Sequence record: MT446416.1
DNA: 64,000 nt
Origin: Escherichia virus TH47
Reading direction: 5' to 3' (one strand)
The translations under genes were made by a program, and so were the position numbers. Numbering within the stretch: position 1 is the first letter of the stretch; every line of letters starts with the position of its first letter. Positions 6,951 through 55,452 of this stretch are shown piece by piece. The notes under the pieces are model-generated. The model was not told the DNA's origin. It made no database searches and was given only the letters and a program-made list of their open reading frames with translations.

Positions 6951-6965
6951 CCATGAATACCTTTA

Positions 6966-7784
6966 TTAATTAGTTCGAGTATTATATTCGTACTCAAATG
7001 TATATACTAAATCTTTATCACAGTTTGGGTTACTTGCATCAAGGATATCACTATTACTAATCATCCATTCAATATAGTTCAATGGAACAGTTTCCATTGG
7101 TTCACCTTTGTGTTTACCGAATGGCATGAATTTATAACGCATTGGTGTATTACAGAATGTTACTATTTGTTCACCAATGTCACCATTAGGGTCAATATGA
7201 CCACGTTCAATAGCAACTTCAATCAATTTGATTAGAACTTGGTAACACATGAATACGTCATCTTTTGCTGCGTGAGCATTCACTGCACGATGTACGTCAC
7301 GATAGCAACCAAATTTATACCACAAATAACTTAGAGTTAAGTTTTTGAATTCAGTGTCTTCTGCAAACATCTTCTTAGCTAAACGAAGGGTACAAATCCA
7401 TTTATCTTCATCGAGCAAGTACTGCGAAACTGAGTTACGATATTTATATTCGTTATCTACCATCATTCGGCGGTCAAATTGAACGTTGTGTCCAATAAAA
7501 TAATCACGACACCCCATGAGTGCGTCGATGTTTTCTAAGTCATCTTTATAACCAATGCAGTTTGCTACATCTTCAGTACTGATAAAATGCACAGCACTTG
7601 CTTCGGGTGGTATATCTTTTAGTGGTTTATAACGCAAAGTGTAGTTATCAATAGTATCAATATTCTCATGTGCACCGTGAGGATATGAAATACTAAATTC
7701 AATAATATCATCTTCACTTTCGACACCAGTTGTTTCGGTGTCTAGTACTGCTACATTTGATAAAAACGCATCTAATTTTGTCAT
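6966..7784 (-). CDS. DnaQ-like 3'-5' exonuclease (DEDDh family)
   Basis: Exo motifs VLDTETTG, GHNVQFD and HRAVNAHAAKDDV; 272 aa. Confidence 0.65.
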   Translation of the reverse strand: MTKLDAFLSNVAVLDTETTGVESEDDIIEFSISYPHGAHENIDTIDNYTLRYKPLKDIPPEASAVHFISTEDVANCIGYKDDLENIDALMGCRDYFIGHNVQFDRRMMVDNEYKYRNSVSQYLLDEDKWICTLRLAKKMFAEDTEFKNLTLSYLWYKFGCYRDVHRAVNAHAAKDDVFMCYQVLIKLIEVAIERGHIDPNGDIGEQIVTFCNTPMRYKFMPFGKHKGEPMETVPLNYIEWMISNSDILDASNPNCDKDLVYTFEYEYNTRTN

Positions 7785-7795
7785 TTTATTCTCGC

Positions 7796-7824
7796 ATAGA
7801 AAAAGGACGCGAAATGCGTCCTTA
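7796..7824 (-). terminator. terminator downstream of the 7822..8559 endonuclease gene
   Basis: Minus-strand reading AAGGACGCatttcGCGTCCTT followed by tttctat. Confidence 0.55.
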
Positions 7825-8559
7825 TGATATATTTTCTAGAACAATTTGAATATGATCTTCATCGTATTTTATTCTCAACAATTTAATATTATTTTGATTA
7901 CAATAATCATTCTTTATTTTATCATTTTTCTGAGTTAGTTTTAGTTTTTCTTTACCACCCCAACCACATGATTCAAAATGTTGAAGACCATCATATTCAA
8001 TACACATATTAAACGTTGGAAGATAAAAATCAAATCTCAAAGGAAGTATATTTTTACAATCATCAAACGTTTTTTCCATTACACACGATACATTTTTCAT
8101 ATCCAAAATGTTACGTATGTCTTTAACTGCCTTTGACATTTTATCAGATATTGCACATTTAATACAACCCTTTCCTGATAAATGGTCATTTGCTCTTTGT
8201 AAAAAATCACCATGTATTTTACAAGTTATAGTGAGTTTTTGTTTGTTGTTTTTGCCATATACAACTTTATCATAGTTATATCTATCACTATGTATTTTAT
8301 AAGATTCCTCAATGAAGGTTTCAGTTGTATGTTTGGAACGTCTTGAACATTTAGTACATCCAGCACCTCTGTAATGGACTTTAACAAATTGCTCATAATC
8401 ACCATGTATTTTACAAGTTACAATAACTTTTGAATTTACATTCTCATATACTGTTTTATCATATAAGAATATATCACCATAAATTGATTTTGATTTTTCT
8501 ATAAATTGTTCTGTTGTTTGCTTTTTATTATTTGCACCCATAACCGTATCACCTAACAA
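7822..8559 (-). CDS. putative homing endonuclease (tandem Cys/His repeats plus C-terminal Vsr/DUF559-like nuclease fold)
   Basis: Two N-terminal repeats (TTExFIEx...YDKxVY...CKIHGDF...GxGCxKC) and C-terminal FDFYLP...CIEYDGLQHF resembling a restriction-endonuclease-like fold. Flanked by hairpin terminators on both sides. Confidence 0.5.
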   Translation of the reverse strand: MLGDTVMGANNKKQTTEQFIEKSKSIYGDIFLYDKTVYENVNSKVIVTCKIHGDYEQFVKVHYRGAGCTKCSRRSKHTTETFIEESYKIHSDRYNYDKVVYGKNNKQKLTITCKIHGDFLQRANDHLSGKGCIKCAISDKMSKAVKDIRNILDMKNVSCVMEKTFDDCKNILPLRFDFYLPTFNMCIEYDGLQHFESCGWGGKEKLKLTQKNDKIKNDYCNQNNIKLLRIKYDEDHIQIVLENIS

Positions 8560-42290: not shown

Positions 42291-43322
42291 TTATAGTGAT
42301 CTGTAAATTTGGATTAGAAGATTTTTATCGAACATAGGTGAATCAATTTCCATGATTTGTTGTAACACAATCTCATCAACTGACTCAGTACTTTCAAAGC
42401 TTTCACCATCTTCAATAAGTTCTTTGATACTTTGCTTGCTAGTAACAACGTTAAACTCACGAATGTTATAAAGTTTAGTAAAAGTATCACGAATAAAACT
42501 AATCTCATCAGTAGTGATAGCAATATCAACTTGAACCTTTGAAATAGTATTGTCTTGAAGATAGTAACTTGGATCTGTTAATAGTTCTGAAAGTGTAAAT
42601 GTTCTATATTTTGGTGCTTCTGACCAAGAATGGAAAGTTGGTTCTTTACCATGTTCTAAAATCATCACACCTCTTGCATCATCCCATGTATCAGAAAAGT
42701 TATGTGGGAAACAGTTACCTGTGTAAATTACACGAGTTCCTTTAGATGTTGTTTTTGCTTGTCTCTTGTGGAAATGTCCACTAAAAACATACTCACAACC
42801 ACCAAAAGAACCTTCAGTCTCTTTACCATGATCTGGCATCTCAACCATTTTATTGAGCAAGTATCCAGGTAACTCTAAGTGACCAAAAACATACTTACTT
42901 TTAAGTTGAGGTAGAACTTTGTATTCATCTTCAATCATAAATGGAATGAAAGTACAATCATCAAATGTTGTGATTTCATTAATGAACTCGATGTTCTCAT
43001 AAACTTGTGCCATATTAATACTAGTAATGTCACGTTTATTTTTATGATACATGTCATGGTTCCCAACTAAGAAGTAAACCTTATCGAAGTTGTCATTTAG
43101 TAATTGTAGAATTTGTAAACCATAGTTTAATGTTTGAATGTTAATATTACTGCGGTTATGGAAGTAATCTCCCATAAACACGCATACAGTAATACCATTT
43201 TTCTTAGCAAGTTCAATCATAAACTTGATGAAGTTCAAACAATCTTCGTTGTGCTGCTTGCTGTTATTCTTTAATCCTAAATGAATATCAGTAAATGTAA
43301 TTGCTTTATCAAATAGAGCCAT
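42291..43322 (-). CDS. 47: SbcD/Mre11-like nuclease (gp47-like)
   Basis: Phosphoesterase motifs DIHLG, GDYFH, GNHDM and GHFH. Start moved to MALFDK (AAGGA SD); the track ORF begins at a TTG. Confidence 0.85.
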   Translation of the reverse strand: MALFDKAITFTDIHLGLKNNSKQHNEDCLNFIKFMIELAKKNGITVCVFMGDYFHNRSNINIQTLNYGLQILQLLNDNFDKVYFLVGNHDMYHKNKRDITSINMAQVYENIEFINEITTFDDCTFIPFMIEDEYKVLPQLKSKYVFGHLELPGYLLNKMVEMPDHGKETEGSFGGCEYVFSGHFHKRQAKTTSKGTRVIYTGNCFPHNFSDTWDDARGVMILEHGKEPTFHSWSEAPKYRTFTLSELLTDPSYYLQDNTISKVQVDIAITTDEISFIRDTFTKLYNIREFNVVTSKQSIKELIEDGESFESTESVDEIVLQQIMEIDSPMFDKNLLIQIYRSL

Positions 43323-44148
43323 CTTCGTTTTTCCTTTCAATCATGTTCATTTCAATTTCGATTTGACGAGTGTGTGATGGTGTAAAACCATGCATCTCAA
43401 GTAAATCGTCTCGGATGTTACGAACATTTTTCTCACTATTAAGAATCGAACGGAAACTATTGTTAACGAACGAAGTATAGTAAGAGAAAGGATTCAACTG
43501 TACTGCTGGTTTATCTTTTTTGTAAAGAATACTCTCTTTAAAGAGAAGTGCGTTTTTAACTAATTGTATTCTGGCATCACCCATCATTTCATCCAAATAT
43601 GTATAGTTTCTATAGTTGGATTTGTGTGAGATTTCCTCTGCCAGTTTAATGAACATTTTACCTAGTTCATTAGTGATTTTACCATGAACAGTACTGAATT
43701 CTCCGTCTTCAAGATCACCTTTCCAGTGAGAACGAACAACTTCGTACAGAATACCTTCTTCATCTACAATGTAATGTTTGAATGGTTCAAAATTAACTCT
43801 TGTATCTGCTGGGATATGATCATCGGTAATTACACGAATAACCACCTCATCGATAGGTACATCAGTCAGTACTAAATTGTGCTCATCTGCGTATTCCTTC
43901 GCTTTCTTCGCACTCATACCTTCTTTTTCACGAATTGCATCAAGCATTTCATTGTTGAGACGTTTAATACGTGCTGCTTTAGCTTTATCTAAAAGTTCTG
44001 CTGTAATTTCGGATTCATCAAAAACTATATAATCATACATACTGTAGCACTTATCAAGTAACCAGCAATATGAGATTTTACTTTTTTGTATCTCACGAAG
44101 TAAATCAGCATTGTTAAGATACTTTTTACGCTTCGGCCTATTTGTCAT
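43309..44148 (-). CDS. 55: gp55-like late sigma factor with C-terminal extension
   Basis: N-terminus KRKKYLNNADLLREIQKSK resembles T4 gp55 [20 protein letters not shown]; sits after 46/47 as in T4. Start moved to MTNRPK (GGAGAG SD). About 280 aa versus 185 aa in T4. Confidence 0.5.
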   Translation of the reverse strand: MTNRPKRKKYLNNADLLREIQKSKISYCWLLDKCYSMYDYIVFDESEITAELLDKAKAARIKRLNNEMLDAIREKEGMSAKKAKEYADEHNLVLTDVPIDEVVIRVITDDHIPADTRVNFEPFKHYIVDEEGILYEVVRSHWKGDLEDGEFSTVHGKITNELGKMFIKLAEEISHKSNYRNYTYLDEMMGDARIQLVKNALLFKESILYKKDKPAVQLNPFSYYTSFVNNSFRSILNSEKNVRNIRDDLLEMHGFTPSHTRQIEIEMNMIERKNEDGSI

Positions 44149-44235
44149 TATTTCAACTCTCCATGTTTTAAATCCAATAGGTACATTCCTTGTACCATCA
44201 ATGTTATTATAGCACCAAAAACGTCTTTGTCCCAC

Positions 44236-44243
44236 GTATAAAT
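44236..44243 (+). promoter_or_regulatory. T4-type late promoter box TATAAATA
   Basis: Exact TATAAATA about 37 nt upstream of the ATG at 44280, in the divergent region next to the gp55-like gene. Confidence 0.55.
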
Positions 44244-44279
44244 ACATCAAATGTTCCCTTCTTATGGAGAATCAAAAAG

Positions 44280-45011
44280 ATGATTGATCGTAGAATCCGA
44301 TTAAGACCTAAAACCGCAGGTGCTAACTATGTGTATGGTGATTTTGGCAACAGTTCAGAACCAACATTGCTATCGTTTCTGCGTCCAACAAATGGTTTGG
44401 TTTGGACTGTAACCCCAACTGTAACTGAACAAAGGTCTGTTCAATATGAAACACAGTCCCCTATACATACTAACAGTAACTATAACAACTACAAGAATAC
44501 AACAAACACTGTTTTCACTATCCAAGGTGAGTTTTATGCGAACACTGCTGCTGAAGCAATGTATGCATTGGCTTGTGTTCATTTTATTCGTTCCGTGTCC
44601 TTAATGGACTTTGGTCGTCAAGCAGCATCTGCTAATAATCCCGAACTAGCAATTGCAGGTGCACCACCACCAATTTTACTATTAAGTGGGTATGGTCGTT
44701 ATACATATAATGATATTCCTGTTATTTTGAAAGCATATAATTTTACATATCCAAATGATGTGTCTTACATTCAGGTTCCATTGGATAGTAGTGATAGTAC
44801 TTTTAATTTATCTGATATGGATAGTCGTAAATTCTTCGAACAGCTTAGAAGTACTGGATATATGAATCCACAAGATGAGGTATGGGTTCCACAGAAAATA
44901 TCGGTAACGCTTCAACTTGAAGAACAACCAACATCTGATTACATGACTAAAAAGTTCAACCTAAATGCATTTAAGCGTGGTGAACTATTACGTAATGGAG
45001 GATTTATCTAA
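44280..45011 (+). CDS. putative virion/baseplate structural protein (243 aa)
   Basis: Start moved to MIDRRIR (GGAGA SD); perfect TATAAATA about 37 nt upstream; first gene of the plus-strand baseplate cluster. Confidence 0.5.
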   Translation: MIDRRIRLRPKTAGANYVYGDFGNSSEPTLLSFLRPTNGLVWTVTPTVTEQRSVQYETQSPIHTNSNYNNYKNTTNTVFTIQGEFYANTAAEAMYALACVHFIRSVSLMDFGRQAASANNPELAIAGAPPPILLLSGYGRYTYNDIPVILKAYNFTYPNDVSYIQVPLDSSDSTFNLSDMDSRKFFEQLRSTGYMNPQDEVWVPQKISVTLQLEEQPTSDYMTKKFNLNAFKRGELLRNGGFI

Positions 45012-45325
45012 TGTCCAATTATAGTCAATACTCTCCTTATGCAAAGGTTAAACAAACGTGGTATCTTGGTTACAATTTACCACGTGATATGGTTCCTGCT
45101 GATACTGACGACTTCTATGTAATTCCATTGAAGTATGAGCATCAACCTTGGCGTTTAGCATACGAAATGTATGGTAATGAACGTCTGTATTATGTATTTG
45201 CCCTATTGAATCCTGATATATTAGGAGAAGACCCAATATACAATTTTAATAGTGGTATCACAATTCGTGTTCCCTCAAATCAACGAGTGCAAAACTATTT
45301 GAACGGTACTCGTAACATAGGTTAA
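45011..45325 (+). CDS. LysM-like baseplate protein (gp53 / P2 gpX-like), tentative
   Basis: 104 aa; WRLAYEMYGNERLYYVFALLNPDI...GITIRVP resembles the tail protein X / LysM-like pattern; translationally coupled to the upstream gene. Confidence 0.4.
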   Translation: MSNYSQYSPYAKVKQTWYLGYNLPRDMVPADTDDFYVIPLKYEHQPWRLAYEMYGNERLYYVFALLNPDILGEDPIYNFNSGITIRVPSNQRVQNYLNGTRNIG

Positions 45326-45336
45326 TGGAGTAAAGT

Positions 45337-47592
45337 ATGGCAGATTTACAAAGTTCTGTTGATAATTTTAAAAATGATATTTCAAACATCACAAGTTCTG
45401 CAAAGGCAGCAAAAGAAACTGCAACAAGTACTATTGAAAGCTTAAAAGCCACTGCTAATACTTTGCAAAATGATCTTGAAAAAGTAAAAAACAATTTTAA
45501 AGCTAAGGTTAGTAACGTACAGTCTTTACCAAAGCAAAGTGCAAGCGTTGACCAAGTGTATGAAGACTTGGATCTAAGTGAGTTTGTTATTCCTTATGAC
45601 AATAAATTGTTAAAGTATGACAATCCAACTTGGCACTTTTCCCTTTTCGCATTAGACAAGGATGATTTCAAAAACTTCTGGCTTTACCCAGATGCTGAAG
45701 TTCAACGTCATGTCATCTCTGAAAGTGGTGTAACTGGAAAGTATAATATCACAAGTGTTCAGATGACGCAAGCTGGTCCTTCAACTCCAGGGATGACAAC
45801 CAACTATTGCTTCAACACAGCAGTACTGAACCTTTCAGAAAACAATAGTATGAGTTTATATGATGAACTAATTTCTTTAAGTAATAAACTAAGGTATCAT
45901 AAGTTCATGGACTTACCTTTAATATTAGAATTGAAATTTATTGGATTCAATACTAATGGTGTACCTGAAACTATACCAGAAACAACTCGTAAATGGTCCG
46001 TGAAGATTAACAGTGTTACCGCTAGTGCATCACAAAGTGGTAGTACTATGATGTATTCTATGAGTCTTGTTCATAACCGTACTGCTCTAGTGGATAACGT
46101 TGAATGGACTCTTAAAGAACCATTTAACTGCACAGCAGAAAACTTTGGTGATTTTTGTTTTGATTTGGAAGATAAATTGAATCAAATGGCAGACCAACAA
46201 TATGGTTATTTGCGTTATAAATTTGGTGAGTTAGCAGAAGGGAAGTTCTTTGAATTTAAAGTTGCACCAGATTTACAGGATTTGTTTATAAACTATGATT
46301 CTAAACAGATGGCAGAAGCTGGAGCTACAAAAAGTGGTGCACAGGGTTCTAAAAACTTTTCATGGAATCCAAGTACTCCAATTTCTCGAATTATCGATGA
46401 CGTAATAGATACCTGTACTGTACAGGCTGATGATAGTACTAGTGTTCGTCAATTTGTTAATATAATCCCACTTAAACAGTATGTTGGATTTGATAATTAC
46501 CGAAACACGTCAGTTTATAAAGTTGTTTTCTATATAGTTCGTTTTAAAATTGGTGATATTGTTCATGAATCCGATTTACAGCCAGAAAACTTTACATTTG
46601 AGTATTTCTTTGAAAATGCCGAGAAATATGTAGACCCAAATGACCAAAAACCAAAGATTAACATGAAAACTTACAATTATCAGTTTAGTGGACTCAATAG
46701 TGAGATTCTAGACCTTGATTTGAAGTTTGACCAGCAATTCTTTGTGGCTACAACTCGTAACCCTGGGCCAATACAGGATGTTGCTAACCACGCTGGTACT
46801 CATACCTCCCAAGAATTGAATATACAAGGGGTTCAGTACAACAGTATACCAGATGCATGGGCAAAAACAAGTGATTTACGCGTTACACGTGATCTTGGTG
46901 GTATGTTAACACAGGCTCAGGAACAACTACTCAATCAAGTTGAAACTTTAGCAAAAGAACAAATGCAAGTTGGTAATGCTGAAGAACAGGATCGTTATAA
47001 TAACTATCAAGTAAACGTTCTACCACAGTATATTGAAGATTATCTAACCACATATGAAGAAAATGACGGTGGAACCGATGGAATTGGTCATCGATATGGT
47101 GAAGTATTCACAATGCCAACTGAAGCAACCAATAATGAAACAACATTATCTGCATCATTGAACGATAACAGTAGTACATATGAAATGGACCGCCGTAAAA
47201 TTCGTGACAACTATTACAATCGTCCATTCTTGTGTAAATTGGATATGCGTGTAGTTGGTGACCCATATTGGTTAGGTTGGAGTGATTATCCATATATCCA
47301 ATATCTTGAACAGGTAATTAATGGAGAAGATATGGAAATTAATCCAGAAGATTACCATGTAGCAAACTACATTACATCTGAAGCATATCTTTTATTGAAA
47401 TTACAACCTGTAGTTTCTATAAATGATAACACTGGTGTTCTTGATATTAATACCCCAACTACATTTAACCAAACTGTTTATCGTGTAAACAAAATTGTTC
47501 ATGATTTTGGTGCAGGTGGTTCATTTACACAACAAATTCAGGCTGCAATTGTAATTCGTGCACTCAAACGTCACGATAGTATAATTGAATAA
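45337..47592 (+). CDS. putative baseplate/tail structural protein (751 aa)
   Basis: Long ORF with GGAG SD, N-terminal coiled-coil-like segment, immediately upstream of the gp5-like spike gene. Confidence 0.5.
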   Translation: MADLQSSVDNFKNDISNITSSAKAAKETATSTIESLKATANTLQNDLEKVKNNFKAKVSNVQSLPKQSASVDQVYEDLDLSEFVIPYDNKLLKYDNPTWHFSLFALDKDDFKNFWLYPDAEVQRHVISESGVTGKYNITSVQMTQAGPSTPGMTTNYCFNTAVLNLSENNSMSLYDELISLSNKLRYHKFMDLPLILELKFIGFNTNGVPETIPETTRKWSVKINSVTASASQSGSTMMYSMSLVHNRTALVDNVEWTLKEPFNCTAENFGDFCFDLEDKLNQMADQQYGYLRYKFGELAEGKFFEFKVAPDLQDLFINYDSKQMAEAGATKSGAQGSKNFSWNPSTPISRIIDDVIDTCTVQADDSTSVRQFVNIIPLKQYVGFDNYRNTSVYKVVFYIVRFKIGDIVHESDLQPENFTFEYFFENAEKYVDPNDQKPKINMKTYNYQFSGLNSEILDLDLKFDQQFFVATTRNPGPIQDVANHAGTHTSQELNIQGVQYNSIPDAWAKTSDLRVTRDLGGMLTQAQEQLLNQVETLAKEQMQVGNAEEQDRYNNYQVNVLPQYIEDYLTTYEENDGGTDGIGHRYGEVFTMPTEATNNETTLSASLNDNSSTYEMDRRKIRDNYYNRPFLCKLDMRVVGDPYWLGWSDYPYIQYLEQVINGEDMEINPEDYHVANYITSEAYLLLKLQPVVSINDNTGVLDINTPTTFNQTVYRVNKIVHDFGAGGSFTQQIQAAIVIRALKRHDSIIE

Positions 47593-47605: not shown

Positions 47606-50272
47606 ATGGCAGATACAAGTAAGAAATATGCCCAACAACAGTTGGGTCGTTTTGACCCTTCGTATCCACAACTAGCAACCGTGATGGATAACCGTGACCC
47701 AACTAAATCCGGTAAGCTAAAAGTGTGGATTCAAGGTTCACAAAGTGATAAAAATTCAAAAGAGTCATGGATTGAAGCATCATACATGTCTCCATTCGCT
47801 GGTAAAACTCCAGGGATACCAAGTGCTGATGCTTATGGTCAATATCCAAAGGGATATGGTTTTTGGGCGGTTCCACCTGATGTCGGATGTACTGTTGTTG
47901 TTATATTTGCACAAGCAAGAACATTCCAAGCGTATTGGATTGGTTGTGTTTATGACCAACGTATGAATACGATGGTTCCTGGAATGGCTACTGAAATAAG
48001 CAACTATGCTGGTACTGATATGCCATTACCCGTAACTGATTATGACCGTAATACAATTTCTACCAGTACACAAGACAAATATGCAAACGTTCCAATTATT
48101 GCAGGTCTGAAAAAACAAAACTTACTTTATGATGAGGAAGCGGGTGTTGCTAACCGTAGCAGTACTCGCCAAACTACCAGTACGGTTTATGGTCTTTCAT
48201 CACCTCGTGGTAACAGTTTTATTATTGATGATGGTTACACAGAAGAAGAATTAACAGCACCTACATGGGATCAAGATCCAGATGGTTATCAGGATACACA
48301 ATTCAATAACCCAGTAAACGATACTCGCGTTGGTTCTCGTAAAAATGAAGGCGTTGTAATTAAAACACGTAGTGGTGCACAGTTGTTGTTATCTGAAGCC
48401 TCTGGTGATGTTCTTTTAATTAACCGTGATGGTACTGCACGTATTAAATTCACTGGTGAAGGTGACATTGAAATGCACTGTGATAAGAATATTAACATTC
48501 GTGCAGGACAAGATATTAACATGGTTGCTGGTCGCTCATATAATATTGAAAGTGGAGCAGACTTCAATGCTCGTGTTGGTGCAAACACTAAACTAGATTT
48601 GGTTGGTGCATTGGATGCTAAAGTTGGTGGTCAGGTTGTTATTAACGCTGGGGCAGATTTACGTTTAGTAACAGCAGCTTCATTACGTATGCAAAGTGGT
48701 AGCAGTACTGATATAACTGCTGGTTCTAATGCGTCAATCTCTGCTGCTACCAGTGCTAATCTTATTGGTTCTTCATCAGCTATTATTAGTGGTGGTGGTC
48801 AAACTCTTACTGTTAACAGTGGTGGTAATAGTGGTACTGCTGAATTTAATGCACCAAACTTCCGCACCCCATCTGCTGGCTTGAATGAACATATACATGA
48901 TATATCGGCTTGGGTTGATGCAGAGAATCACGGCAGTACTGTTGAACCTCCACGTCAAGGTGGTGGTAGTGGGAATAGTGAATCCCCAGTTCAACCTGAA
49001 CCTGCTAATGATGTAGCTCCAACTTTAGCTCCAGTACAGGACACTGAAGCAATTCAATATGTAAATTATACAACAGAAACAGAACAAGTTCAAACACAAG
49101 ATTTAATGACTTCTGATCCTGGCATGGCTGGTTATAGCATTACGTATGAAGGTCTTCATATGTTCATGCCGTGTAGTGGAACCATTCGCCAATACGGTTA
49201 TTGGGGGAAAGGTGTCCCGACTAGTGGTGGTGGTAAAGCTGATAGAAGTGGCTGGGAAATACAGTGCAAGGGTGATGTTGTAGCTCCAGATGGTGGTGTA
49301 GTTGTTATCACGAATGGTGCTTTATTGGTTCAACATAAGTCTGGATATAAATCTGTATTTTATAATATTCAATCAGATTTGCTCAATAAAGACGTTGTTC
49401 AAAAAGGACAAGTACTGGGGAAAGCTAATGGTGTTATTCAATTTGAAATAAGAGTTACCTCTGCCAACGTACTGGGATTTAGTGGTTCAGTTGACCCTGG
49501 ATTATTCTATGCATCGCAGACTGGTACAGGTTCTGAAGCGGGAAATAAAACATTAATTGCAGGACAAGCAACGAACCAAGCAGCACCGAAAGCTGTTGTT
49601 CAACCTTCTGTTGATAGTGATGAATTAGTTGTCTCCACTAAAATTAAAACCATCGGTACTGGATATTCACAACGTGGTTCTAGGCATGTCCCTCGTCGTA
49701 GAAGAACACAACGTTCAGGTGGTAGTACCGCAGCACCAACTGCACAAGAATCATACAATGTTGGTAATGTTGACAAGACGGCAATTGACTGGAAAGTTGT
49801 TCCTGGTGATTCACAATTTATTTCCGAATTGAAAGAATATGAAGGGACAATGGCGTATCAACAAGCTAAAGGATATTACCGAAATGGTAAATTCTGGAGA
49901 TATTTAGACAGTCGTGGGTTCCCAACCATTGGTTACGGACACTTGATTGTTGGTGGAGAAAACTTCTCTGGTGGTATTACCGAACAGGAAGCCAATGATA
50001 TGTTAGTTCGTGATAGTAGTAAAGCTATATATGATGCCAAATCAATCTACGCTTCTTATAAGATGAAAACACCTTACATGGCACAACAAGTCCTATGTCA
50101 AATGGTCTTCCAGATGGGTAAAGGTGGAGTAATGAAATTCAAGTCAATGCTATCTGAAATGGCGAAAGGAAACTATAAGCAAGCTGCTGCTCAAATCCGA
50201 AATTCTGCTTGGTATCGCCAAACAACTCGTCGTGCTGAATTAATGGCACGAAGATTAGAGGCATGTCAATAA
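47606..50272 (+). CDS. 5: baseplate central spike (gp5-like): OB-fold N-terminus, beta-helix-like repeats, degenerate M23-like segment, C-terminal GH24 lysozyme
   Basis: N-terminus GKLKVWIQGS...GFWAVPPDVGCTVVVIFAQARTFQAYWIGCVYD (gp5/VgrG-type OB fold); repetitive Gly/Ser/Ala middle; M23-like segment with HxH replaced; C-terminal EYEGT...PTIGYGHL...FQMG...WYRQT lysozyme. Confidence 0.75.
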   Translation: MADTSKKYAQQQLGRFDPSYPQLATVMDNRDPTKSGKLKVWIQGSQSDKNSKESWIEASYMSPFAGKTPGIPSADAYGQYPKGYGFWAVPPDVGCTVVVIFAQARTFQAYWIGCVYDQRMNTMVPGMATEISNYAGTDMPLPVTDYDRNTISTSTQDKYANVPIIAGLKKQNLLYDEEAGVANRSSTRQTTSTVYGLSSPRGNSFIIDDGYTEEELTAPTWDQDPDGYQDTQFNNPVNDTRVGSRKNEGVVIKTRSGAQLLLSEASGDVLLINRDGTARIKFTGEGDIEMHCDKNINIRAGQDINMVAGRSYNIESGADFNARVGANTKLDLVGALDAKVGGQVVINAGADLRLVTAASLRMQSGSSTDITAGSNASISAATSANLIGSSSAIISGGGQTLTVNSGGNSGTAEFNAPNFRTPSAGLNEHIHDISAWVDAENHGSTVEPPRQGGGSGNSESPVQPEPANDVAPTLAPVQDTEAIQYVNYTTETEQVQTQDLMTSDPGMAGYSITYEGLHMFMPCSGTIRQYGYWGKGVPTSGGGKADRSGWEIQCKGDVVAPDGGVVVITNGALLVQHKSGYKSVFYNIQSDLLNKDVVQKGQVLGKANGVIQFEIRVTSANVLGFSGSVDPGLFYASQTGTGSEAGNKTLIAGQATNQAAPKAVVQPSVDSDELVVSTKIKTIGTGYSQRGSRHVPRRRRTQRSGGSTAAPTAQESYNVGNVDKTAIDWKVVPGDSQFISELKEYEGTMAYQQAKGYYRNGKFWRYLDSRGFPTIGYGHLIVGGENFSGGITEQEANDMLVRDSSKAIYDAKSIYASYKMKTPYMAQQVLCQMVFQMGKGGVMKFKSMLSEMAKGNYKQAAAQIRNSAWYRQTTRRAELMARRLEACQ

Positions 50273-50284
50273 ATATTTCAGTAC

Positions 50285-50292
50285 TATAAATA
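50285..50292 (+). promoter_or_regulatory. late promoter box TATAAATA (tttcagtacTATAAATAata) upstream of lysozyme
   Basis: Exact TATAAATA embedded in the cagtaCTATAAATAAT context shared with the capsid and core-protein upstream regions. Confidence 0.5.
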
Positions 50293-50309
50293 ATAATGAG
50301 GAAATCTTT

Positions 50310-50798
50310 ATGAGTAAATGGGAAATCAAAAATACCGACGAACAATTTTTTAAAGAAATTAAAGAATTTGAAGGTACTATTGCGTATCAGAAAAAACTTG
50401 GTTATTTTAAAAATGATAAGTTTTGGGTATATAAAGACAGTCTAGGTCTTGATACCATTGGTTACGGTCACCTTGTACTTAAGGGTGAAAGTTTCAAAAA
50501 TGGACTCACTGAAGCAGAAGCTGATGCTCTCCTTATAAAAGATGCTCAGACCGCTTACAATGACGCAAAATCAATCTATGATCAATTTGGAATGACTGCT
50601 CCAGTACAGGTTCAGCGTGTATTGTGGTTTATGGTGTTCCAAATGGGTAAATCAAAAGTTTTAAATTTCAAAAAAGCGATGGCTGCTCTTGGTCGTGGTG
50701 ATTATAAAACTGCTGGTAAAGAAATGCGTGATAGTACGTGGTACAAACAAACCACATCCAGAGCGGAGAAGATGGCTCGAATCGTCGAATCCGTATAA
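50310..50798 (+). CDS. e: T4-type lysozyme (GH24, gene e-like endolysin)
   Basis: EFEGT...YKDSLGLDTIGYGHL...FQMG...WYKQT matches T4 lysozyme catalytic Glu/Asp/Thr positions; TATAAATA about 20 nt upstream. Confidence 0.85.
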   Translation: MSKWEIKNTDEQFFKEIKEFEGTIAYQKKLGYFKNDKFWVYKDSLGLDTIGYGHLVLKGESFKNGLTEAEADALLIKDAQTAYNDAKSIYDQFGMTAPVQVQRVLWFMVFQMGKSKVLNFKKAMAALGRGDYKTAGKEMRDSTWYKQTTSRAEKMARIVESV

Positions 50799-50813: not shown

Positions 50814-51209
50814 ATGGCAATTGTTTTTAAAGGTTTTTCAACTCCAGTAGTTGGAAGAACTGAAACATTGTATGACAGTGAATTGGTTCGTCAGGATTTA
50901 ATGAATCATTTCAATACAAAAAAAGGTGAACGTGCATTTGATGCTGATTATGGGTTCATTGCGTGGGATTTGCTATTTGAATTGGATGGTTATAATACAA
51001 TCAACCTTTTGGAAGCAGATGCCCGTAGAATTATTAGCTTGGACCCACGTTTAAGCTTAAAGAAACTTCAAATATCAAGAATTGAGTACGGTTATCAGAT
51101 GGATATAGTACTTGAATATGTTGTTCTCAATACTCTTGAAGAATTAACTATAGTTTTTGATGCAAGAAGTAACAACAGAATGGCTACCTATTCTGTATCA
51201 TCTTTGTAA
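50814..51209 (+). CDS. 25: baseplate wedge protein (gp25 / gpW-like)
   Basis: 131 aa; KGERAFDADYGFIAWDLLFE resembles T4 gp25 KGSRPFDPEFGCDLSDQLFE; followed by a UUCG-loop terminator. Confidence 0.7.
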   Translation: MAIVFKGFSTPVVGRTETLYDSELVRQDLMNHFNTKKGERAFDADYGFIAWDLLFELDGYNTINLLEADARRIISLDPRLSLKKLQISRIEYGYQMDIVLEYVVLNTLEELTIVFDARSNNRMATYSVSSL

Positions 51210-51215
51210 ATTATA

Positions 51216-51246
51216 AAAGCACTCTTCGGGGTGCTTTTCTTTTTGG
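51216..51246 (+). terminator. rho-independent terminator with UUCG tetraloop
   Basis: AGCACTCttcgGGGTGCT followed by ttttcttttt, after the gp25-like gene. Confidence 0.65.
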
Positions 51247-51279: not shown

Positions 51280-51987
51280 ATGAAAAGTTATTATGGTTTC
51301 ATTTATCAATGGGAAGATAGCACCAATGGTATAAAATACATAGGTTCTCATTATGGAGCAACAGATGACAATTATGTGTCATCTAATGTTATAGTTAATA
51401 GAATTTATAAGGGAAGACCACAGGATTTATCAAGAACAGTTTTAGAATATATTATAGTTGATGATAAGAAATTTTTATTGGAGAGAGAACAAAAATACTT
51501 AGATTTGATATTACCCTCTGAATTGTACACGAGTTTAAACAGAAAAAATAAAACCGTGAAATATTACAACATGAAAAGGAATGCATGTGGTGGTAACGGT
51601 GGTGTAGGAAGTAATGGTATGTTGAAAAATAAAATAAAATATTTTAACAAACATACATTTGAACAAAAATTCTTTAGTAGTACTGACATTATACCAGATG
51701 ATTGGGTTAAAGGTGTACCATCCTCAAAGGTTAGCTGTACTGGAAGCACTTGGTATCTGAATATCAAAACTGGGGAAAATAAAAGATTTAAGAATAATCC
51801 AGGTATTGAATGGATTGAAGGTAAACGTAATATTTCAACAACACCAAAAAAAGTAAACACTCCGTATGGAATTTTTGAAAGTGCATCTGAATGTGGTAGA
51901 CAGACTGGGATAAAACAAGCAACTGTAACGTTTAGGTGTCGTTCAAAATCATCTAATATGGCAAATTGGTTTTATATAGAGGAATAA
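51280..51987 (+). CDS. GIY-YIG homing endonuclease (Seg-like)
   Basis: N-terminal YGFIYQWEDSTNGIKYIGSH...EREQKYL is a GIY-YIG module; freestanding gene between gp25-like and gp6-like genes. Confidence 0.7.
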   Translation: MKSYYGFIYQWEDSTNGIKYIGSHYGATDDNYVSSNVIVNRIYKGRPQDLSRTVLEYIIVDDKKFLLEREQKYLDLILPSELYTSLNRKNKTVKYYNMKRNACGGNGGVGSNGMLKNKIKYFNKHTFEQKFFSSTDIIPDDWVKGVPSSKVSCTGSTWYLNIKTGENKRFKNNPGIEWIEGKRNISTTPKKVNTPYGIFESASECGRQTGIKQATVTFRCRSKSSNMANWFYIEE

Positions 51988-51990
51988 ATT

Positions 51991-54900
51991 ATGTCACAAC
52001 AAAAAAGACAATCCAATTTATACGCGGGGGAAGATTGGACCCAGGTATATGAAAGCTTTTACAAAATCAATCTCACGGCATTTGATTACGATACCATTCG
52101 TCAAAGTATGATAGACTATCTCCGAACTACATATCCAGATTCGTTTAACGACTGGATTGAGAACGACCAGTTTATTTTTATTCTAGATACAATATCTATG
52201 CTGGGGCAGAACTTAGCGTTTCGTATGGATCTTAATACACGCGAAAACTTTTTAGATACTGCAACTCGTCGTGCATCCGTACTGAAACTCGCAAAAATGA
52301 TTTCTTACTTTCCACGCCGTTCATATCCAGGTCGTGCAGTTGCTAAATTAACAGAAATAAAAACCAACCAAGACGTTCGTAATAGTTTTAACGAATCACT
52401 TAAGGATAAAATCATTCGTTGGAATGACCCAATGGACACAAACTGGTATGAGAACTTCATTCTAGTTATGAACAGTTCATTTGTCAGTACTAACCAATTT
52501 GGTAATCCGGTTAAACGTATCGATATCAATGGTGTTTCTCGTCATCTATATCGCATGAATACAATTCCAATGTCAGCCCCAAGTCTCCCATTCACTGCTA
52601 CAGTTAATGGTGAATCGATGACATTTGAAGTTGTCAACCCTGATATTACGGCAGTTGGTGTTGAAGAGCGTCACCCCGAACCACAAGAGCAAAAATATAT
52701 AGTTTATCAGAATGATGGTAATGGATTTAGTTCACCAAATACTGGTTTCTTTGTTTATTTTGTTCAAGGGACATTGACATACCAAGATTTCCAATATAAT
52801 ATTCGAGAAGAAAACCGAATTCAAGATATCAATGTTGATAATATCAACGAAACTGATGTTTGGGTTCAGGAAATCAACGAAGATGGTATTGTTCGTACTA
52901 AATGGACCAAAGTTCCATCTATGGAAAGTATCGCATACAATACTGTTAACCGTCAACTAAAAACAATCTTTGCTGTCACAACTCGTGATAAAGACCAGAT
53001 TACTATTAAGTATCCTGATTCTCGTAGTGGTGTTGTTCCTCGTGGGACGTATCGTGTATGGTATCGTGTTAGTAATGGTGAAACATACAACATTAAAACC
53101 TCTGAAATCCAGAACAAAAGTGTAAAATACACCTATAGAACCAAAACACAATCAAGCTACGAATCCAGTACTTTGGATATTCGTTTCACATTGCAATATG
53201 AGTCAGATCGTGCACAAAGTGCAGAAACAATTGAACAAATTAAGGCTCGTGCTCCACAAATGTATTATACTCAAAACCGTTTTGTTAACGGAGAAGACTA
53301 TAACATTGCTCCGTTGAGTTTGGGTAACACAGTTCTTAAATCTAAAGCAATTAACCGTTTATATAGTGGTCAGTCACGATTTATTGATATTAATGACCCA
53401 ACTGGTAAGTATCAAAACACTGATGTGTTTAGTGATGATGGTTCAATGTATCAAGAAAAAACACAATTTAATAAATCATTACAATTACCAACTACCAAAA
53501 CAAATGCTAGTATTGCAATTGATAATATTCAGCCATTGATTGGTGAGAATGCTGTAATACAACGTTATCAAGCATATCCACCGAATACAATTGGTATTGA
53601 AATTCAACAAAAATGGACACCTGAATACAATTCTAATTACGCAACTAATACGTATGGTCGTATTATGGGGGCAACAGGTAACGTATTCGTAAATTATCAA
53701 GTTGGTACGTTGATTAAGTTTTCAAATGCTGGAACTACTGTGTGGGCTAGTATTGTTAGTGTTCTTGATAATGGATATTACGTTCTAAGTACTTCAGTTT
53801 CATCAAATATGCAAGCACAAGAGTACATTTTACAATACAGAACACGTTTTAATAGTGTCGAAGTACAAGCAATCTCTGCAATGCTTGATAAAAAGACAGA
53901 TTTTGTTATTATTCATGATAAAGAAACAACTTCTTGGCTTCCATTAGAAATCAGTACTGATGAAGATACTATTTCTTATAATGGAAATGAAGTTCTTGTT
54001 ATGATTAACATCAAATATACTGCTGAAACATGGGAATTTTATGCGAATGGCGTTGAATATGTGTTCGTTGGTGGTGATAAAGTTCGTTTTTACTTCGTTT
54101 CTTCTAAAAAGATAACTGATATTAGTACTGGTAGTGTTCAGAGTGACAAAATTGAAATTTTATCATCAAATACCACAAGTAATAGTAATGCTGGGTTGAC
54201 AAGTAACATAGATTTCCAAATTTATGACACAATTCAACAAGAAAACGGGTATCTTGATGGTTCTCGTGTGGTTATCACCTCTGAAAACGTTGATAGTAAT
54301 GGAATCCCACTAGAACCTAATCAATTCAGAGAAATTGTACCAAATTGGACTGGTGAAGATTCAGTTAAATATGGTGGTATATTGGTTTTCCAAGAAAATG
54401 ATGATTTCACTATATCAGTACTGTCATTACCGAACGATACTTTCACTATTCTTGATTCTTCATGGGCTTATACAATGGAACAGGCACTTGCAGAAACTAA
54501 TGCGTATAAGAGAAGTGAATTTGTTCGCAACAATGCTATTCGCTCAACAACATTGAGTGGTATCTATAGTAAAGGTTCAGGCTTTATGGTTGGCTTTAAA
54601 TACGATGGTAAATATTACTTTATAGAACAAACTGTTGGTAATAATAATGATCGTTTAAACCAATTAATTGAGAACTTGACCTATTCTGATGACACAACTG
54701 CTGCAACTCCTGAACTTGCGTTTTATCGTGCTATTGTTAATATCGGAACTAATGCTGATGCTAACCAAAAGTTAGATTATTATGGTTATAAAGATGTAAC
54801 TTCACAATATACAGTAAAAACGAATGCAAGAACTGGTATTGATTTCCACTGGAAACATTATGCACCAGATGATAATCGCATTGACCCAAGTAGAACAAAC

Positions 54901-55452
54901 TTGATTGACATGTATGTATTAACCAATTCATACAAAACTGAAGTTGATGTATGGTTGAAGAATGGAACACAAGGTAATATGCCTAAGCCTCCAACATCTG
55001 TTGAATTGAAAGACATTTTTAAAGAAGTTGAACAAAAAATAGTCATCAGTGACAGTATTATTTGGCATAGTGCAGAATATCTACCATTATTTGGTGCGAG
55101 TGCTGATGAAGATTATAAAGCAGATTTCAAAGTCGTCAAATTGCCTAACAGTACAATGAGTGATGATGAAATTCGTCAAAATGTCGTAGCACTAACTAAC
55201 GAGTATTTTAATGTTGACAACTGGGATTTTGGTGAAAGTTTCTATTACACAGACTTGTGTACATACATTCACTCCCAATTAGGACGACATATTAGTACTA
55301 TTGTTATCGTAGCTCAAAACCCTAACTCTAAATTTGGCTCACTATTTGAAATCCCTTCACGTTCTGACCAGATTTTCTTAAGTACTGCATCAGTTGATAA
55401 CGTACAGATAGTCAATTCCTTGGCTAAGAGTAACATTAACATTGGTTCATAA
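51991..55452 (+). CDS. baseplate wedge protein, gp6 / gpJ-like (1153 aa)
   Basis: N-terminal FDYDTIRQSMIDYLRTTYPDSFNDW...ISMLGQNLAFRMD...FLDTATRRAS resembles the Baseplate_J pattern; followed by a UUCG-loop terminator. Confidence 0.6.
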   Translation: MSQQKRQSNLYAGEDWTQVYESFYKINLTAFDYDTIRQSMIDYLRTTYPDSFNDWIENDQFIFILDTISMLGQNLAFRMDLNTRENFLDTATRRASVLKLAKMISYFPRRSYPGRAVAKLTEIKTNQDVRNSFNESLKDKIIRWNDPMDTNWYENFILVMNSSFVSTNQFGNPVKRIDINGVSRHLYRMNTIPMSAPSLPFTATVNGESMTFEVVNPDITAVGVEERHPEPQEQKYIVYQNDGNGFSSPNTGFFVYFVQGTLTYQDFQYNIREENRIQDINVDNINETDVWVQEINEDGIVRTKWTKVPSMESIAYNTVNRQLKTIFAVTTRDKDQITIKYPDSRSGVVPRGTYRVWYRVSNGETYNIKTSEIQNKSVKYTYRTKTQSSYESSTLDIRFTLQYESDRAQSAETIEQIKARAPQMYYTQNRFVNGEDYNIAPLSLGNTVLKSKAINRLYSGQSRFIDINDPTGKYQNTDVFSDDGSMYQEKTQFNKSLQLPTTKTNASIAIDNIQPLIGENAVIQRYQAYPPNTIGIEIQQKWTPEYNSNYATNTYGRIMGATGNVFVNYQVGTLIKFSNAGTTVWASIVSVLDNGYYVLSTSVSSNMQAQEYILQYRTRFNSVEVQAISAMLDKKTDFVIIHDKETTSWLPLEISTDEDTISYNGNEVLVMINIKYTAETWEFYANGVEYVFVGGDKVRFYFVSSKKITDISTGSVQSDKIEILSSNTTSNSNAGLTSNIDFQIYDTIQQENGYLDGSRVVITSENVDSNGIPLEPNQFREIVPNWTGEDSVKYGGILVFQENDDFTISVLSLPNDTFTILDSSWAYTMEQALAETNAYKRSEFVRNNAIRSTTLSGIYSKGSGFMVGFKYDGKYYFIEQTVGNNNDRLNQLIENLTYSDDTTAATPELAFYRAIVNIGTNADANQKLDYYGYKDVTSQYTVKTNARTGIDFHWKHYAPDDNRIDPSRTNLIDMYVLTNSYKTEVDVWLKNGTQGNMPKPPTSVELKDIFKEVEQKIVISDSIIWHSAEYLPLFGASADEDYKADFKVVKLPNSTMSDDEIRQNVVALTNEYFNVDNWDFGESFYYTDLCTYIHSQLGRHISTIVIVAQNPNSKFGSLFEIPSRSDQIFLSTASVDNVQIVNSLAKSNINIGS

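What the first reader, a model, noticed from the sequence alone, without database searches (positions are those of the whole stretch)
47606..50798. gp5-like spike with unusual domain order carrying M23-like and GH24 domains, followed by a paralogous free-standing lysozyme
The 888 aa spike has a gp5/VgrG-type OB-fold N-terminus, a repetitive beta-helix-like middle, an M23-like segment where IQFEIR replaces the usual HxH, and a complete T4-lysozyme-like domain at the extreme C-terminus. T4 gp5 has the lysozyme in the middle and the beta-helix at the end. The next gene (50310..50798) is a second complete GH24 lysozyme about half identical to the fused one, with its own TATAAATA box, suggesting duplication with division of labour between entry lysin and endolysin.
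Basis: partly seen in the sequence, partly recalled or inferred. Interest (0 to 1): 0.55.

Follow-up and report, generated by a model that had tools for sequence, protein, structure and literature searches.

The report
Jumbo-phage tail spike with tethered lysozyme
This is the cell-puncturing tail spike of a Rak2/121Q-like giant coliphage, carrying a catalytically dead M23 domain and a lysozyme after its needle, followed by a duplicated free lysozyme gene; the architecture is real but was already described in 2013 and 2017.

Summary

It is not new. The window is 97.6% identical to Escherichia phage Ecwhy_1. The RaK2 (2013) and CBB (2017) papers describe this domain order, the central M23 domain and the adjacent lysozyme. 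An orthologue of the free lysozyme (LysUE1) has been shown to be muralytic.

What I add:
- The M23 domain lacks the complete catalytic set in 16/16 family members (no His at either HxH position or at the third His) yet is under strong purifying selection, so it is a non-catalytic LytM-type module.
- An invariant HxH after the beta-helix marks a probable P2 gpV-like iron Apex that is internal, with 457 residues hanging beyond it.
- The free lysozyme derives from the fused copy by a lineage-specific duplication independent of T4's e/gp5 pair.
- A third paralogue in relatives (TM + LysM + GH24) is the literature's predicted endolysin, so 'entry lysin versus endolysin' is plausible but unproven.

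The parts
44237..44244 (+). TATAAATA late-promoter-like box ahead of the first gene of the baseplate block (structural protein, gp53-like, 751-aa protein, spike)
   Evidence: It lies about 35 nt upstream of the 44277/44280 start. No terminator lies between here and the spike.
47606..50272 (+). Central spike gene, 888 aa. Orthologue of RaK2 gp078, CBB_240, phAPEC6 gp241 and 121Q gp587.
   Evidence: PHROG 13211 matches full length at 1766 bits. 97.6% nt identity to Ecwhy_1. Orthologues aligned. Orthologues detected in virions by mass spectrometry.
47645..47926 (+). N-terminal OB-fold (residues 14-107), the presumed hub-docking domain
   Evidence: Pfam Phage_base_V, E 7.8e-7. 73% mean identity among orthologues, dN/dS 0.00-0.05.
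47927..48370 (+). Conserved 'neck' (residues 108-255) with no detectable relative
   Evidence: Many invariant residues. No Pfam or PDB match in this stretch.
48371..48865 (+). VgrG/gp5-type triple beta-helix region (residues about 256-420)
   Evidence: Pfam DUF2345. The profile hits VgrG1 4mtk at 2.1e-4, other VgrGs, and T4-like gp5 9f4a at 0.028.
48866..48937 (+). Apex-like segment (residues 421-444) with invariant HxH (H429, H431; codons 48890-48898)
   Evidence: HxH is present in 16/16 family members. HxH after the beta-helix is the accepted Apex/histidine-cage signature. It aligns colinearly but weakly with P2 gpV H197/H199.
48938..49120 (+). Linker 1 (residues 445-505), rich in T, P, Q, V and E, poorly conserved
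   Evidence: Composition. 47% mean identity and higher dN/dS.
49121..49525 (+). Degenerate M23/LytM domain (residues 506-640). The M23 catalytic positions read R547...E551, N587 and V610-I611-Q612.
   Evidence: for homology; for the missing residues in 16/16 members; dN/dS 0.03-0.10; the domain is found only in this spike family among 1.84 billion representatives.
49526..49813 (+). Linker 2 (residues 641-736) with a conserved strand-like segment and a basic stretch RHVPRRRRTQRS (693-704)
49814..50269 (+). C-terminal GH24 lysozyme domain (residues 737-888). Catalytic E746, D768 and T774 are present.
   Evidence: Pfam Phage_lysozyme. PDB hits to gp5 lysozyme and T4 lysozyme. Residues mapped.
50269..50292 (+). 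Intergenic late-promoter-like boxes: ATAAATA overlapping the spike stop codon (50269-50275) and TATAAATA (50285-50292)
   Evidence: The first box is conserved in all 8 directly adjacent orthologues; the second only in the 121Q-like lineage. Association with gene starts. The same motif is reported as the late promoter in CBB and GAP32.
50310..50798 (+). Free-standing GH24 lysozyme, 162 aa (E21, D43, T49), with no signal peptide or TM segment. Orthologue of LysUE1, CBB_239 and RaK2 gp073.
   Evidence: Orthologue shown to be muralytic in vitro. Not found in virion proteomes.
50814..51209 (+). gp25-like baseplate wedge gene, co-transcribed with the free lysozyme
   Evidence: Pfam GPW_gp25, E 1.5e-8. 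15-nt gap. Adjacent to the free lysozyme in the nine relatives that have one.
51215..51238 (+). Intrinsic terminator closing the lysozyme + gp25 unit
   Evidence: 10-bp stem followed by a T-run.

Best explanation
The 888-aa protein is the trimeric central spike of a Rak2/121Q-like jumbo myophage. Its N-terminal OB-fold docks it under the tail tube and hub. A conserved neck and a VgrG/gp5-type triple beta-helix form the needle. An invariant HxH closes the needle, most likely as a P2 gpV-like metal-binding Apex. Unlike T4 gp5 or P2 gpV, the chain then continues for 457 residues: a flexible linker, a catalytically dead but strongly conserved M23/LytM domain, a second linker, and an intact GH24 lysozyme. 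On sheath contraction the needle crosses the outer membrane and carries three tethered lysozymes into the periplasm, where they cut peptidoglycan locally for the tube (inferred by analogy with T4 gp5 and with evolved VgrGs). The dead LytM domain cannot cleave peptides. It most likely binds peptidoglycan, or docks or regulates the lysozyme (inferred). The next gene is a duplicate of the spike's own lysozyme domain, made within the enterobacterial branch of this phage group and independently of T4's e/gp5 pair. It is soluble, has an intact catalytic triad, is expressed late from its own promoter together with gp25, has not been detected in virions, and is muralytic in vitro. It is therefore most likely a lysis-phase enzyme that shares that job with a third, membrane-anchored LysM-GH24 paralogue.
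For: Identity and architecture. Orthologues of the spike are virion proteins by mass spectrometry (CBB_240; phAPEC6 gp241). M23 homology: with CBB's own CDD hit. Dead active site in 16/16 members. Purifying selection on the dead domain (dN/dS 0.03-0.10, similar to GH24). HxH invariant in 16/16 and its meaning. GH24 catalytic E/D/T present in both window copies. Duplication history: the free clade has 96% bootstrap and nests among fused copies; the T-even e/gp5 split has 100% bootstrap; the 13-residue insertion is shared only within the Rak2-like group. The Vibrio relative has only the fused copy. Late promoter and terminator: with the gp55-like sigma gene next door annotated in relatives. The free lysozyme is not in virion proteomes, its orthologue is active, and it has no TM segment. 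Third paralogue.
Against: There is no structure. The Apex assignment rests on motif position and invariance; the profile did not reach gpV or gp138 and the direct gpV comparison is colinear but weak. Where the C-terminal 457 residues sit in the virion, and whether they are cleaved, is unknown. The hub partner is not identified: the 751-aa neighbour has no match. The free lysozyme's tight synteny with gp25 could instead mean a baseplate role, and low-copy proteins are easily missed by mass spectrometry (RaK2 gp078 itself was missed). The dN/dS values rest on near-saturated dS.
Confidence: 0.7

Rival explanations
1. The free 162-aa lysozyme is not a lysis enzyme but a low-copy baseplate component or assembly factor that works with gp25 and the spike. 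The real endolysin would be the TM-LysM-GH24 paralogue.
For: It is always immediately upstream of the gp25-like gene, even in RaK2 where four ORFs separate it from the spike. It shares a transcription unit with gp25, closed by a terminator. A separate predicted endolysin exists. Low-copy baseplate proteins are missed by mass spectrometry.
Against: It was not detected in the CBB or phAPEC6 virions, whereas the three-copy spike was. It has no domain other than GH24 that could attach it to a baseplate. The distant Vibrio relative does without it.
Confidence: 0.22
2. The dead LytM domain is a regulator rather than a passive binder. Either it acts in cis, covering or positioning the GH24 active site until the spike is deployed, or in trans, engaging host amidases in the periplasm as EnvC, NlpD and DipM do.
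For: The best solved-structure matches are non-catalytic LytM regulators or interaction modules: DipM, SpoIIQ and also EnvC. The domain is as constrained as the enzyme it accompanies. It is always found together with GH24 in this family. Phage 812 shows dead hydrolase folds and lids controlling baseplate hydrolases.
Against: There is no structural or interaction evidence. The groove residues could not be examined without a model. Simple peptidoglycan binding explains the same conservation.
Confidence: 0.25
3. The region after the HxH is removed or rearranged during maturation (as T4 gp5 is cleaved), so the mature needle ends in a normal Apex and the enzymes are packed elsewhere or released.
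For: T4 gp5 is cleaved during assembly (established knowledge: Kanamaru et al. 2002). The linkers are long, flexible and fast-evolving. A conserved basic stretch RHVPRRRR sits just before GH24.
Against: No data on the processed size. The phAPEC6 and CBB mass spectrometry reports give only peptide counts. No known protease site was identified.
Confidence: 0.15
4. The M23-like domain is an active peptidase that uses a non-canonical metal site.
For: M23 homology is real, and the CBB paper lists it simply as an M23 peptidase domain.
Against: No His at either HxH position or at the third catalytic His in any of 16 members. At the HxxxD positions, His occurs in two members and Asp in a third, never together, and no alternative conserved His/Asp/Glu set replaces them. 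The one invariant His (H577) corresponds to a conserved His of the M23 consensus that is not one of the five catalytic or metal positions (visible in the and 55 alignments).
Confidence: 0.03

Closest known systems
[quoted passage not shown]
   Same: Direct orthologues with the same length, domain order and gene neighbourhood. The unusual order, the central M23 domain and the adjacent T4-type lysozyme are described in PMC3622015 and PMC5259590. LysUE1 activity is reported in PMC12805682.
   Different: Nothing of substance. Those papers do not note that the M23 domain is catalytically dead, that an HxH Apex motif sits mid-protein, or the duplication history.
T4 gp5 (tail-associated lysozyme) together with T4 e
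   Same: An OB-fold, a triple beta-helix and a GH24 lysozyme in one spike protein, plus a paralogous free GH24 lysozyme elsewhere in the genome.
   Different: In gp5 the lysozyme sits between the OB-fold and the beta-helix, and the helix ends the protein and is capped by the PAAR protein gp5.4. Here the lysozyme is last, after an HxH and a LytM domain. The fused/free pair arose independently: 100% bootstrap split and different indels.
P2 gpV and phi92 gp138 spikes with an iron-loaded Apex
   Same: An OB-fold, then a beta-helix, then HxH. The order is colinear and HxH aligns to H197/H199.
   Different: In gpV only 12 residues follow the HxH; here 457 do. Similarity beyond the motif is not significant. 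Metal binding is untested.
Evolved VgrG proteins of type VI secretion, for example Vibrio cholerae VgrG-3 with a C-terminal peptidoglycan hydrolase (from my own knowledge)
   Same: Enzymatic cargo fused after the beta-helix needle and delivered into the target periplasm. The beta-helix is detectably VgrG-like.
   Different: VgrG carries an N-terminal gp27-like module that this protein lacks, and this protein is a virion component.
Degenerate LytM factors: EnvC, NlpD, DipM, SpoIIQ
   Same: An M23 fold without the zinc and catalytic residues, retained for binding or regulation. DipM and SpoIIQ are the top solved-structure hits.
   Different: Those are bacterial division or sporulation proteins. 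None is part of a phage spike, and a partner for this domain is unknown.
phi29 gp13 tail-tip protein (lysozyme-like plus M23 domains; from my own knowledge)
   Same: A lysozyme-type domain and an M23-type domain combined in a phage tail-tip protein.
   Different: The gp13 M23 domain is an active endopeptidase, the domain order differs, and gp13 is not an OB/beta-helix spike.

Membership tests
T4 gp5-type tail lysozyme spike | N-terminal gp5/VgrG OB-fold | tested here: met
   Pfam Phage_base_V at residues 23-116, 29.8 bits against a 23.8 cut-off.
T4 gp5-type tail lysozyme spike | Lysozyme domain inserted between the OB-fold and the beta-helix | tested here: not met
   GH24 is at 737-888, after the beta-helix. 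Residues 108-255 have no lysozyme similarity.
T4 gp5-type tail lysozyme spike | Beta-helix forms the C-terminus and is capped by a separate PAAR protein (no HxH) | tested here: not met
   The beta-helix ends near residue 420 and is followed by an invariant HxH and 457 more residues. A PAAR gene was not searched for.
P2 gpV / phi92 gp138 Apex spikes | OB-fold followed by an intertwined beta-helix | tested here: met
P2 gpV / phi92 gp138 Apex spikes | Conserved HxH motif directly after the beta-helix | tested here: met
   H429-x-H431, invariant in 16/16 members. It aligns with gpV H197/H199, though weakly.
P2 gpV / phi92 gp138 Apex spikes | HxH lies near the C-terminus, so the Apex is the end of the chain | tested here: not met
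   457 residues follow the motif.
P2 gpV / phi92 gp138 Apex spikes | Fe ion held in an inter-chain histidine cage | not testable with these tools
   This needs a trimer structure or metal analysis.
Peptidase family M23 (LytM) | Sequence and fold homology to M23 domains | tested here: met
   Profile against PDB: DipM 2.1e-7, SpoIIQ 2.3e-7, LasA 4.8e-7, with more than 25 further M23 chains. Pfam PF01551 matches 10/10 orthologues, best 8e-7. The window's own domain scores 21.8 bits, below the 28.7 gathering score.
Peptidase family M23 (LytM) | HxxxD and HxH zinc ligands plus the catalytic His | tested here: not met
   The window has R547...E551, N587 and V610-I-Q612. No member of 16 has the set. 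It is a non-peptidase homologue (degenerate LytM).
Glycoside hydrolase family 24 (T4-type lysozyme), fused and free copies | Pfam PF00959 above the gathering score | tested here: met
   41.7 and 37.5 bits against a 22.3 cut-off.
Glycoside hydrolase family 24 (T4-type lysozyme), fused and free copies | Catalytic Glu, Asp and Thr equivalent to T4L E11, D20 and T26 | tested here: met
   Fused E746, D768, T774; free E21, D43, T49.
Glycoside hydrolase family 24 (T4-type lysozyme), fused and free copies | Muralytic activity | not testable with these tools
   The literature reports the free copy's orthologue LysUE1 as active with EDTA. The fused copy is untested.
Endolysin (functional class), free lysozyme only | Required for lysis from within, and works with a holin | not testable with these tools
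   There is no export signal, so it would need a holin, and none was identified. It is absent from virion proteomes. A competing predicted endolysin exists.
Evolved VgrG (T6SS) | N-terminal gp27-like module fused to the gp5-like part | tested here: not met
   The OB-fold starts at residue 14, and VgrG hits cover only the beta-helix.

The most novel reading that the evidence does not exclude
The spike is a cargo-bearing Apex needle. The metal-capped tip is not the end of the protein but the anchor for a delivered two-domain payload. In that payload the dead LytM domain acts as a regulator: it either gates the tethered lysozyme or hijacks host periplasmic amidases in the manner of EnvC, NlpD or DipM. 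Entry-phase cell-wall opening would then be controlled by a degenerate-enzyme switch, which has not been described for any phage spike.
Probability: 0.12. Interest if true: 0.7.

Novelty: already known. Interest (0 to 1): 0.25.

Why it matters
As annotation it matters little. More than 70 GenBank phage records carry this gene pair, and two papers already flag the odd domain order and the M23 domain.

The residual value is in three details that those papers do not state:
- The M23 domain is a conserved pseudo-enzyme.
- The needle seems to end in an internal gpV-type HxH Apex with enzymes tethered beyond it. This raises a concrete structural question: how does a sharp, metal-capped tip coexist with about 150 kDa of trimeric cargo?
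- One GH24 subfamily has been deployed three ways in these genomes: on the spike, free and soluble, and membrane-anchored with LysM. This is a clean natural example of repeated re-use of a lysin module, parallel to but independent of T4 e/gp5.

It also gives a caution for phage-lysin engineering. The 'M23 peptidase' label on these spikes should not be read as an activity.

Tried and rejected
(1) The search for homologous proteins with the middle domain, alone and as a 12-sequence profile, returned nothing and then only an 84-aa fragment. That collection lacks the family, so no alignment could be supplied to AlphaFold.

(2) The AlphaFold2 single-sequence model of residues 503-651 had pLDDT 39.9. 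It is unusable, so no fold search was run and the second structure job was not spent.

(3) The profile of the N-terminal 450 residues against PDB found VgrG and gp5 beta-helices but not gpV or gp138. The best hit (4uhv, 1.1e-6) is inflated because the query's HxH aligns to the target's His-tag.

(4) The direct gpV comparison is colinear but not significant.

(5) The 751-aa upstream protein has no PDB match, so its hub role is not shown.

(6) The raw count of TATAAATA is not enriched. I rejected this as evidence against a promoter once positions relative to gene starts were examined.

(7) The WIN-RaK2 dN/dS for the free lysozyme (1.44) is an artefact of an unaligned one-codon offset and was discarded.

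(8) I considered that the fused/free pair is orthologous to T4 gp5/e and rejected it.

(9) I considered an active non-canonical M23 site and rejected it.
Full report
**What is there**

The window encodes an 888-aa protein at 47606-50272 (+). After a 37-nt gap comes a 162-aa protein at 50310-50798 (+), exactly as reported.

The DNA is 97.6% identical to Escherichia phage Ecwhy_1 and about 83% identical to the Asteriusvirus phages 121Q, PBECO4 and phAPEC6. The window therefore comes from a Rak2/121Q-like jumbo myophage.

The neighbourhood is a baseplate block:
- a virion structural protein (about 44277-45011)
- a gp53-like wedge protein (45011-45325)
- a 751-aa structural protein (45337-47592)
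- the spike
- the small lysozyme
- a gp25-like wedge protein (50814-51209)
- a GIY-YIG homing endonuclease (51280-51987)
- a gp6-like wedge protein (51991-55452)

**Checking each claim**

- **OB-fold:** Pfam Phage_base_V at residues 23-116, above the gathering score.
- **Beta-helix:** Pfam DUF2345. A 10-orthologue profile hits solved VgrG spikes (4mtk at 2.1e-4) and a T4-like gp5 (0.028). The stronger 4uhv score is partly an artefact of its His-tag aligning with the query's HxH.
- **C-terminal lysozyme:** PF00959 at 766-883. The best solved matches are gp5 lysozyme domains and T4 lysozyme.
- **Middle region:** Pfam reported no M23 on the full protein. The isolated domain scores E 2.2e-4, and all ten orthologues hit PF01551, best 8e-7.
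  - A profile of ten orthologues hits LasA, zoocin A, DipM, TagE and SpoIIQ.
  - A broader 12-sequence profile gives DipM 2.1e-7, SpoIIQ 2.3e-7 and LasA 4.8e-7, followed by more than 25 further M23/LytM chains including EnvC.
  - The M23 relationship is therefore real.
- **Two lysozymes:** 50% identical over 159 residues with no gaps, E 1e-62.
- **TATAAATA box:** at 50285-50292.
  - The motif is not over-represented (6 against 7.9 expected).
  - Four of the 6 copies, and 13 of 21 ATAAATA copies, lie within 60 nt upstream of a same-strand gene start, against 0.17 and 0.58 expected.
  - The CBB paper reports the same ATAAATA motif as the late promoter of CBB and GAP32.
  - Relatives annotate the divergent neighbour gene as a gp55-like late sigma factor.

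**It is already in the literature**

- The RaK2 paper (PMC3622015) calls gp078 one of the largest baseplate lysozymes, with 'a very unusual domain composition'. It describes a beta-helix flanked by unmatched regions plus a C-terminal lysozyme, and lists ORF073 as a related lysozyme.
- The CBB paper (PMC5259590) describes the N-terminal gp5 OB domain and the C-terminal lysozyme, and contrasts the order with T4 gp5.
  - It notes that only the spike and gp25 were confirmed as structural.
- phAPEC6 virion mass spectrometry found the 95.9-kDa spike and the three upstream products, but not the small lysozyme.
- LysUE1 of the Asteriusvirus phage UE-S1 is a 162-aa protein whose cloning primer encodes MSKWEIK. 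It was expressed and shown to be muralytic with EDTA (PMC12805682).

**What the comparison adds**

I aligned ten orthologues from GenBank phages with six more distant full-length relatives. Those six were the only other full-length proteins carrying this domain among 1.84 billion representatives.

1. **The M23 domain is catalytically dead throughout the family.**
   - The HxxxD positions read R547...E551 in the window. Across the 16 members, His occurs there in two and Asp in a third, never together.
   - The third catalytic His is N, D, G, Y or S.
   - The HxH is V-I-Q in the window and never His in any member.
   - Yet dN/dS is 0.03-0.10, like the GH24 domain (0.02-0.08), while the linkers evolve several-fold faster (dS is near saturation, so these are rough figures).
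   - It is therefore a conserved non-catalytic LytM module, like its best structural matches DipM and SpoIIQ.

2. **An HxH (H429, H431) directly after the beta-helix is invariant in 16/16 members.**
   - According to the P2 Apex study (bioRxiv 10.1101/2023.02.25.529910), such a motif is the signature of the iron-binding histidine-cage Apex of gpV-type spikes. Spikes without it, such as T4 gp5, use a PAAR protein.
   - The family aligns colinearly with gpV, with HxH on H197/H199, but the score is weak.
   - This assignment is inference from motif, position and invariance.
   - If it is right, the Apex here is internal, with 457 residues following it.

3. **History of the lysozymes.**
   - In a neighbour-joining tree the free copies form one clade (96% bootstrap) nested among the fused copies, though the exact placement is weakly supported.
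   - All Rak2-like copies separate from T-even e and gp5 at 100%.
   - They share a 13-residue insertion between the catalytic Glu and Asp, and lack the T-even insertion.
   - The distant Vibrio phage 2.275.O has only the fused copy in its whole record.
   - The free gene therefore derives from the spike's C-terminal domain, within the enterobacterial branch and independently of T4's pair.

4. **Enterobacterial relatives have three copies of this GH24 subfamily.**
   - The third lies outside the window.
   - In 121Q it is gp532: an N-terminal transmembrane segment, LysM and GH24, 35% identical to the free lysozyme and carrying the same insertion.
   - The CBB paper predicts this gene to be the endolysin.

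**Transcription**

- No terminator separates the spike from the small lysozyme.
- An ATAAATA box overlapping the spike's stop codon is conserved in all eight directly adjacent orthologues.
- The second TATAAATA is specific to the 121Q-like lineage.
- A strong terminator (51215-51238) follows the gp25-like gene.
- The small lysozyme and gp25 therefore form a late unit. The two stay adjacent in all nine relatives that have the free gene, including RaK2, where four small ORFs separate them from the spike.

**Most likely mechanism**

Shown here: the protein's identity as the virion spike, its domain map, the intact GH24 triads, the dead M23 site, the duplication history and the late-promoter context.

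Inferred:
- The trimer's OB domains dock under the hub, and the beta-helix needle with its HxH cap breaches the outer membrane.
- Three linker-tethered lysozymes then digest peptidoglycan locally, as in T4 gp5 or evolved VgrGs.
- The LytM module binds peptidoglycan or regulates or docks the lysozyme. Phage 812 offers a precedent for dead hydrolase folds and lids in baseplates.
- The free lysozyme acts late from the cytoplasm, once a holin opens the membrane, alongside the membrane-anchored paralogue.

The main rival is that the free lysozyme is a low-copy baseplate factor.

**Limits**

- No usable structure model could be made.
- No cryo-EM of a Rak2-like baseplate was found in the library.
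- The hub partner is unidentified.
- Processing of the spike is unknown.

**Verdict**

- The feature is already known and annotated.
- The pseudo-enzyme status of the M23 domain, the internal Apex motif and the three-way deployment of one GH24 subfamily are modest new details.

Noticed in passing
window 51280-51987 (+): A free-standing GIY-YIG homing endonuclease (PHROG 314, E 1.9e-14; weak I-TevI DNA-binding domain hit) sits between the gp25-like and gp6-like baseplate genes, just after the terminator. 121Q has a gene at the same position, annotated 'protein associated with group I intron'. GAP32, XbC2, BF, fHe-Yen9-04, PHA46 and Hallingskeid have none.
   Followed up: partly
window 47927-48370 (spike residues 108-255): The 'neck' between the OB-fold and the beta-helix is among the most conserved parts of the spike (72% mean identity, many invariant residues). 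It has no Pfam or PDB relative. It occupies the position where T4 gp5 has its lysozyme domain.
   Followed up: partly
window 45337-47592 (+): The 751-aa virion protein just upstream of the spike has no Pfam or PDB match. It is detected in the phAPEC6 and CBB virions. The gene is absent from this position in Vibrio phage 2.275.O, where the gp53-like gene abuts the spike. Its role as hub is unproven.
   Followed up: partly
window 49682-49717 (spike residues 693-704): A basic stretch, RHVPRRRRTQRS, is preceded by a conserved 'GYSQRGS' in linker 2. It is conserved in the enterobacterial orthologues and could be a processing or interaction site.
   Followed up: no
L001 (RaK2) 6345-7838: Four small ORFs, two on the opposite strand, are inserted between the spike and the free lysozyme in RaK2. 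The lysozyme remains immediately upstream of gp25.
   Followed up: no
L007 (PHA46) and L008 (Hallingskeid), fused GH24 domains: The Thr equivalent to T4L T26 is replaced by Asp ('DIGYGH'), and there is a 4-6 residue insertion after the GYGH motif. Their free copies keep Thr.
   Followed up: no
P0008 (917-aa metagenomic relative): Its C-terminal GH24 domain appears degenerate ('VGDESSEF' in place of the ExEG motif, Val in place of the catalytic Thr), while the HxH and the dead LytM domain are retained.
   Followed up: no
MH494197.1 (phage CMSTMSU) 302741-305914: The spike gene is split into several annotated ORFs ('VgrG protein', 'baseplate hub subunit / tail lysozyme' and hypothetical proteins), and the record is flagged UNVERIFIED. 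This is probably sequencing or assembly error rather than biology.
   Followed up: no
window 43309-44250 (-): The divergently oriented gene next to the baseplate block corresponds to the gene annotated as an RNA polymerase sigma factor or late sigma factor in 121Q and Hallingskeid. This fits the T4-late-like ATAAATA boxes found upstream of 12 genes in the window.
   Followed up: partly
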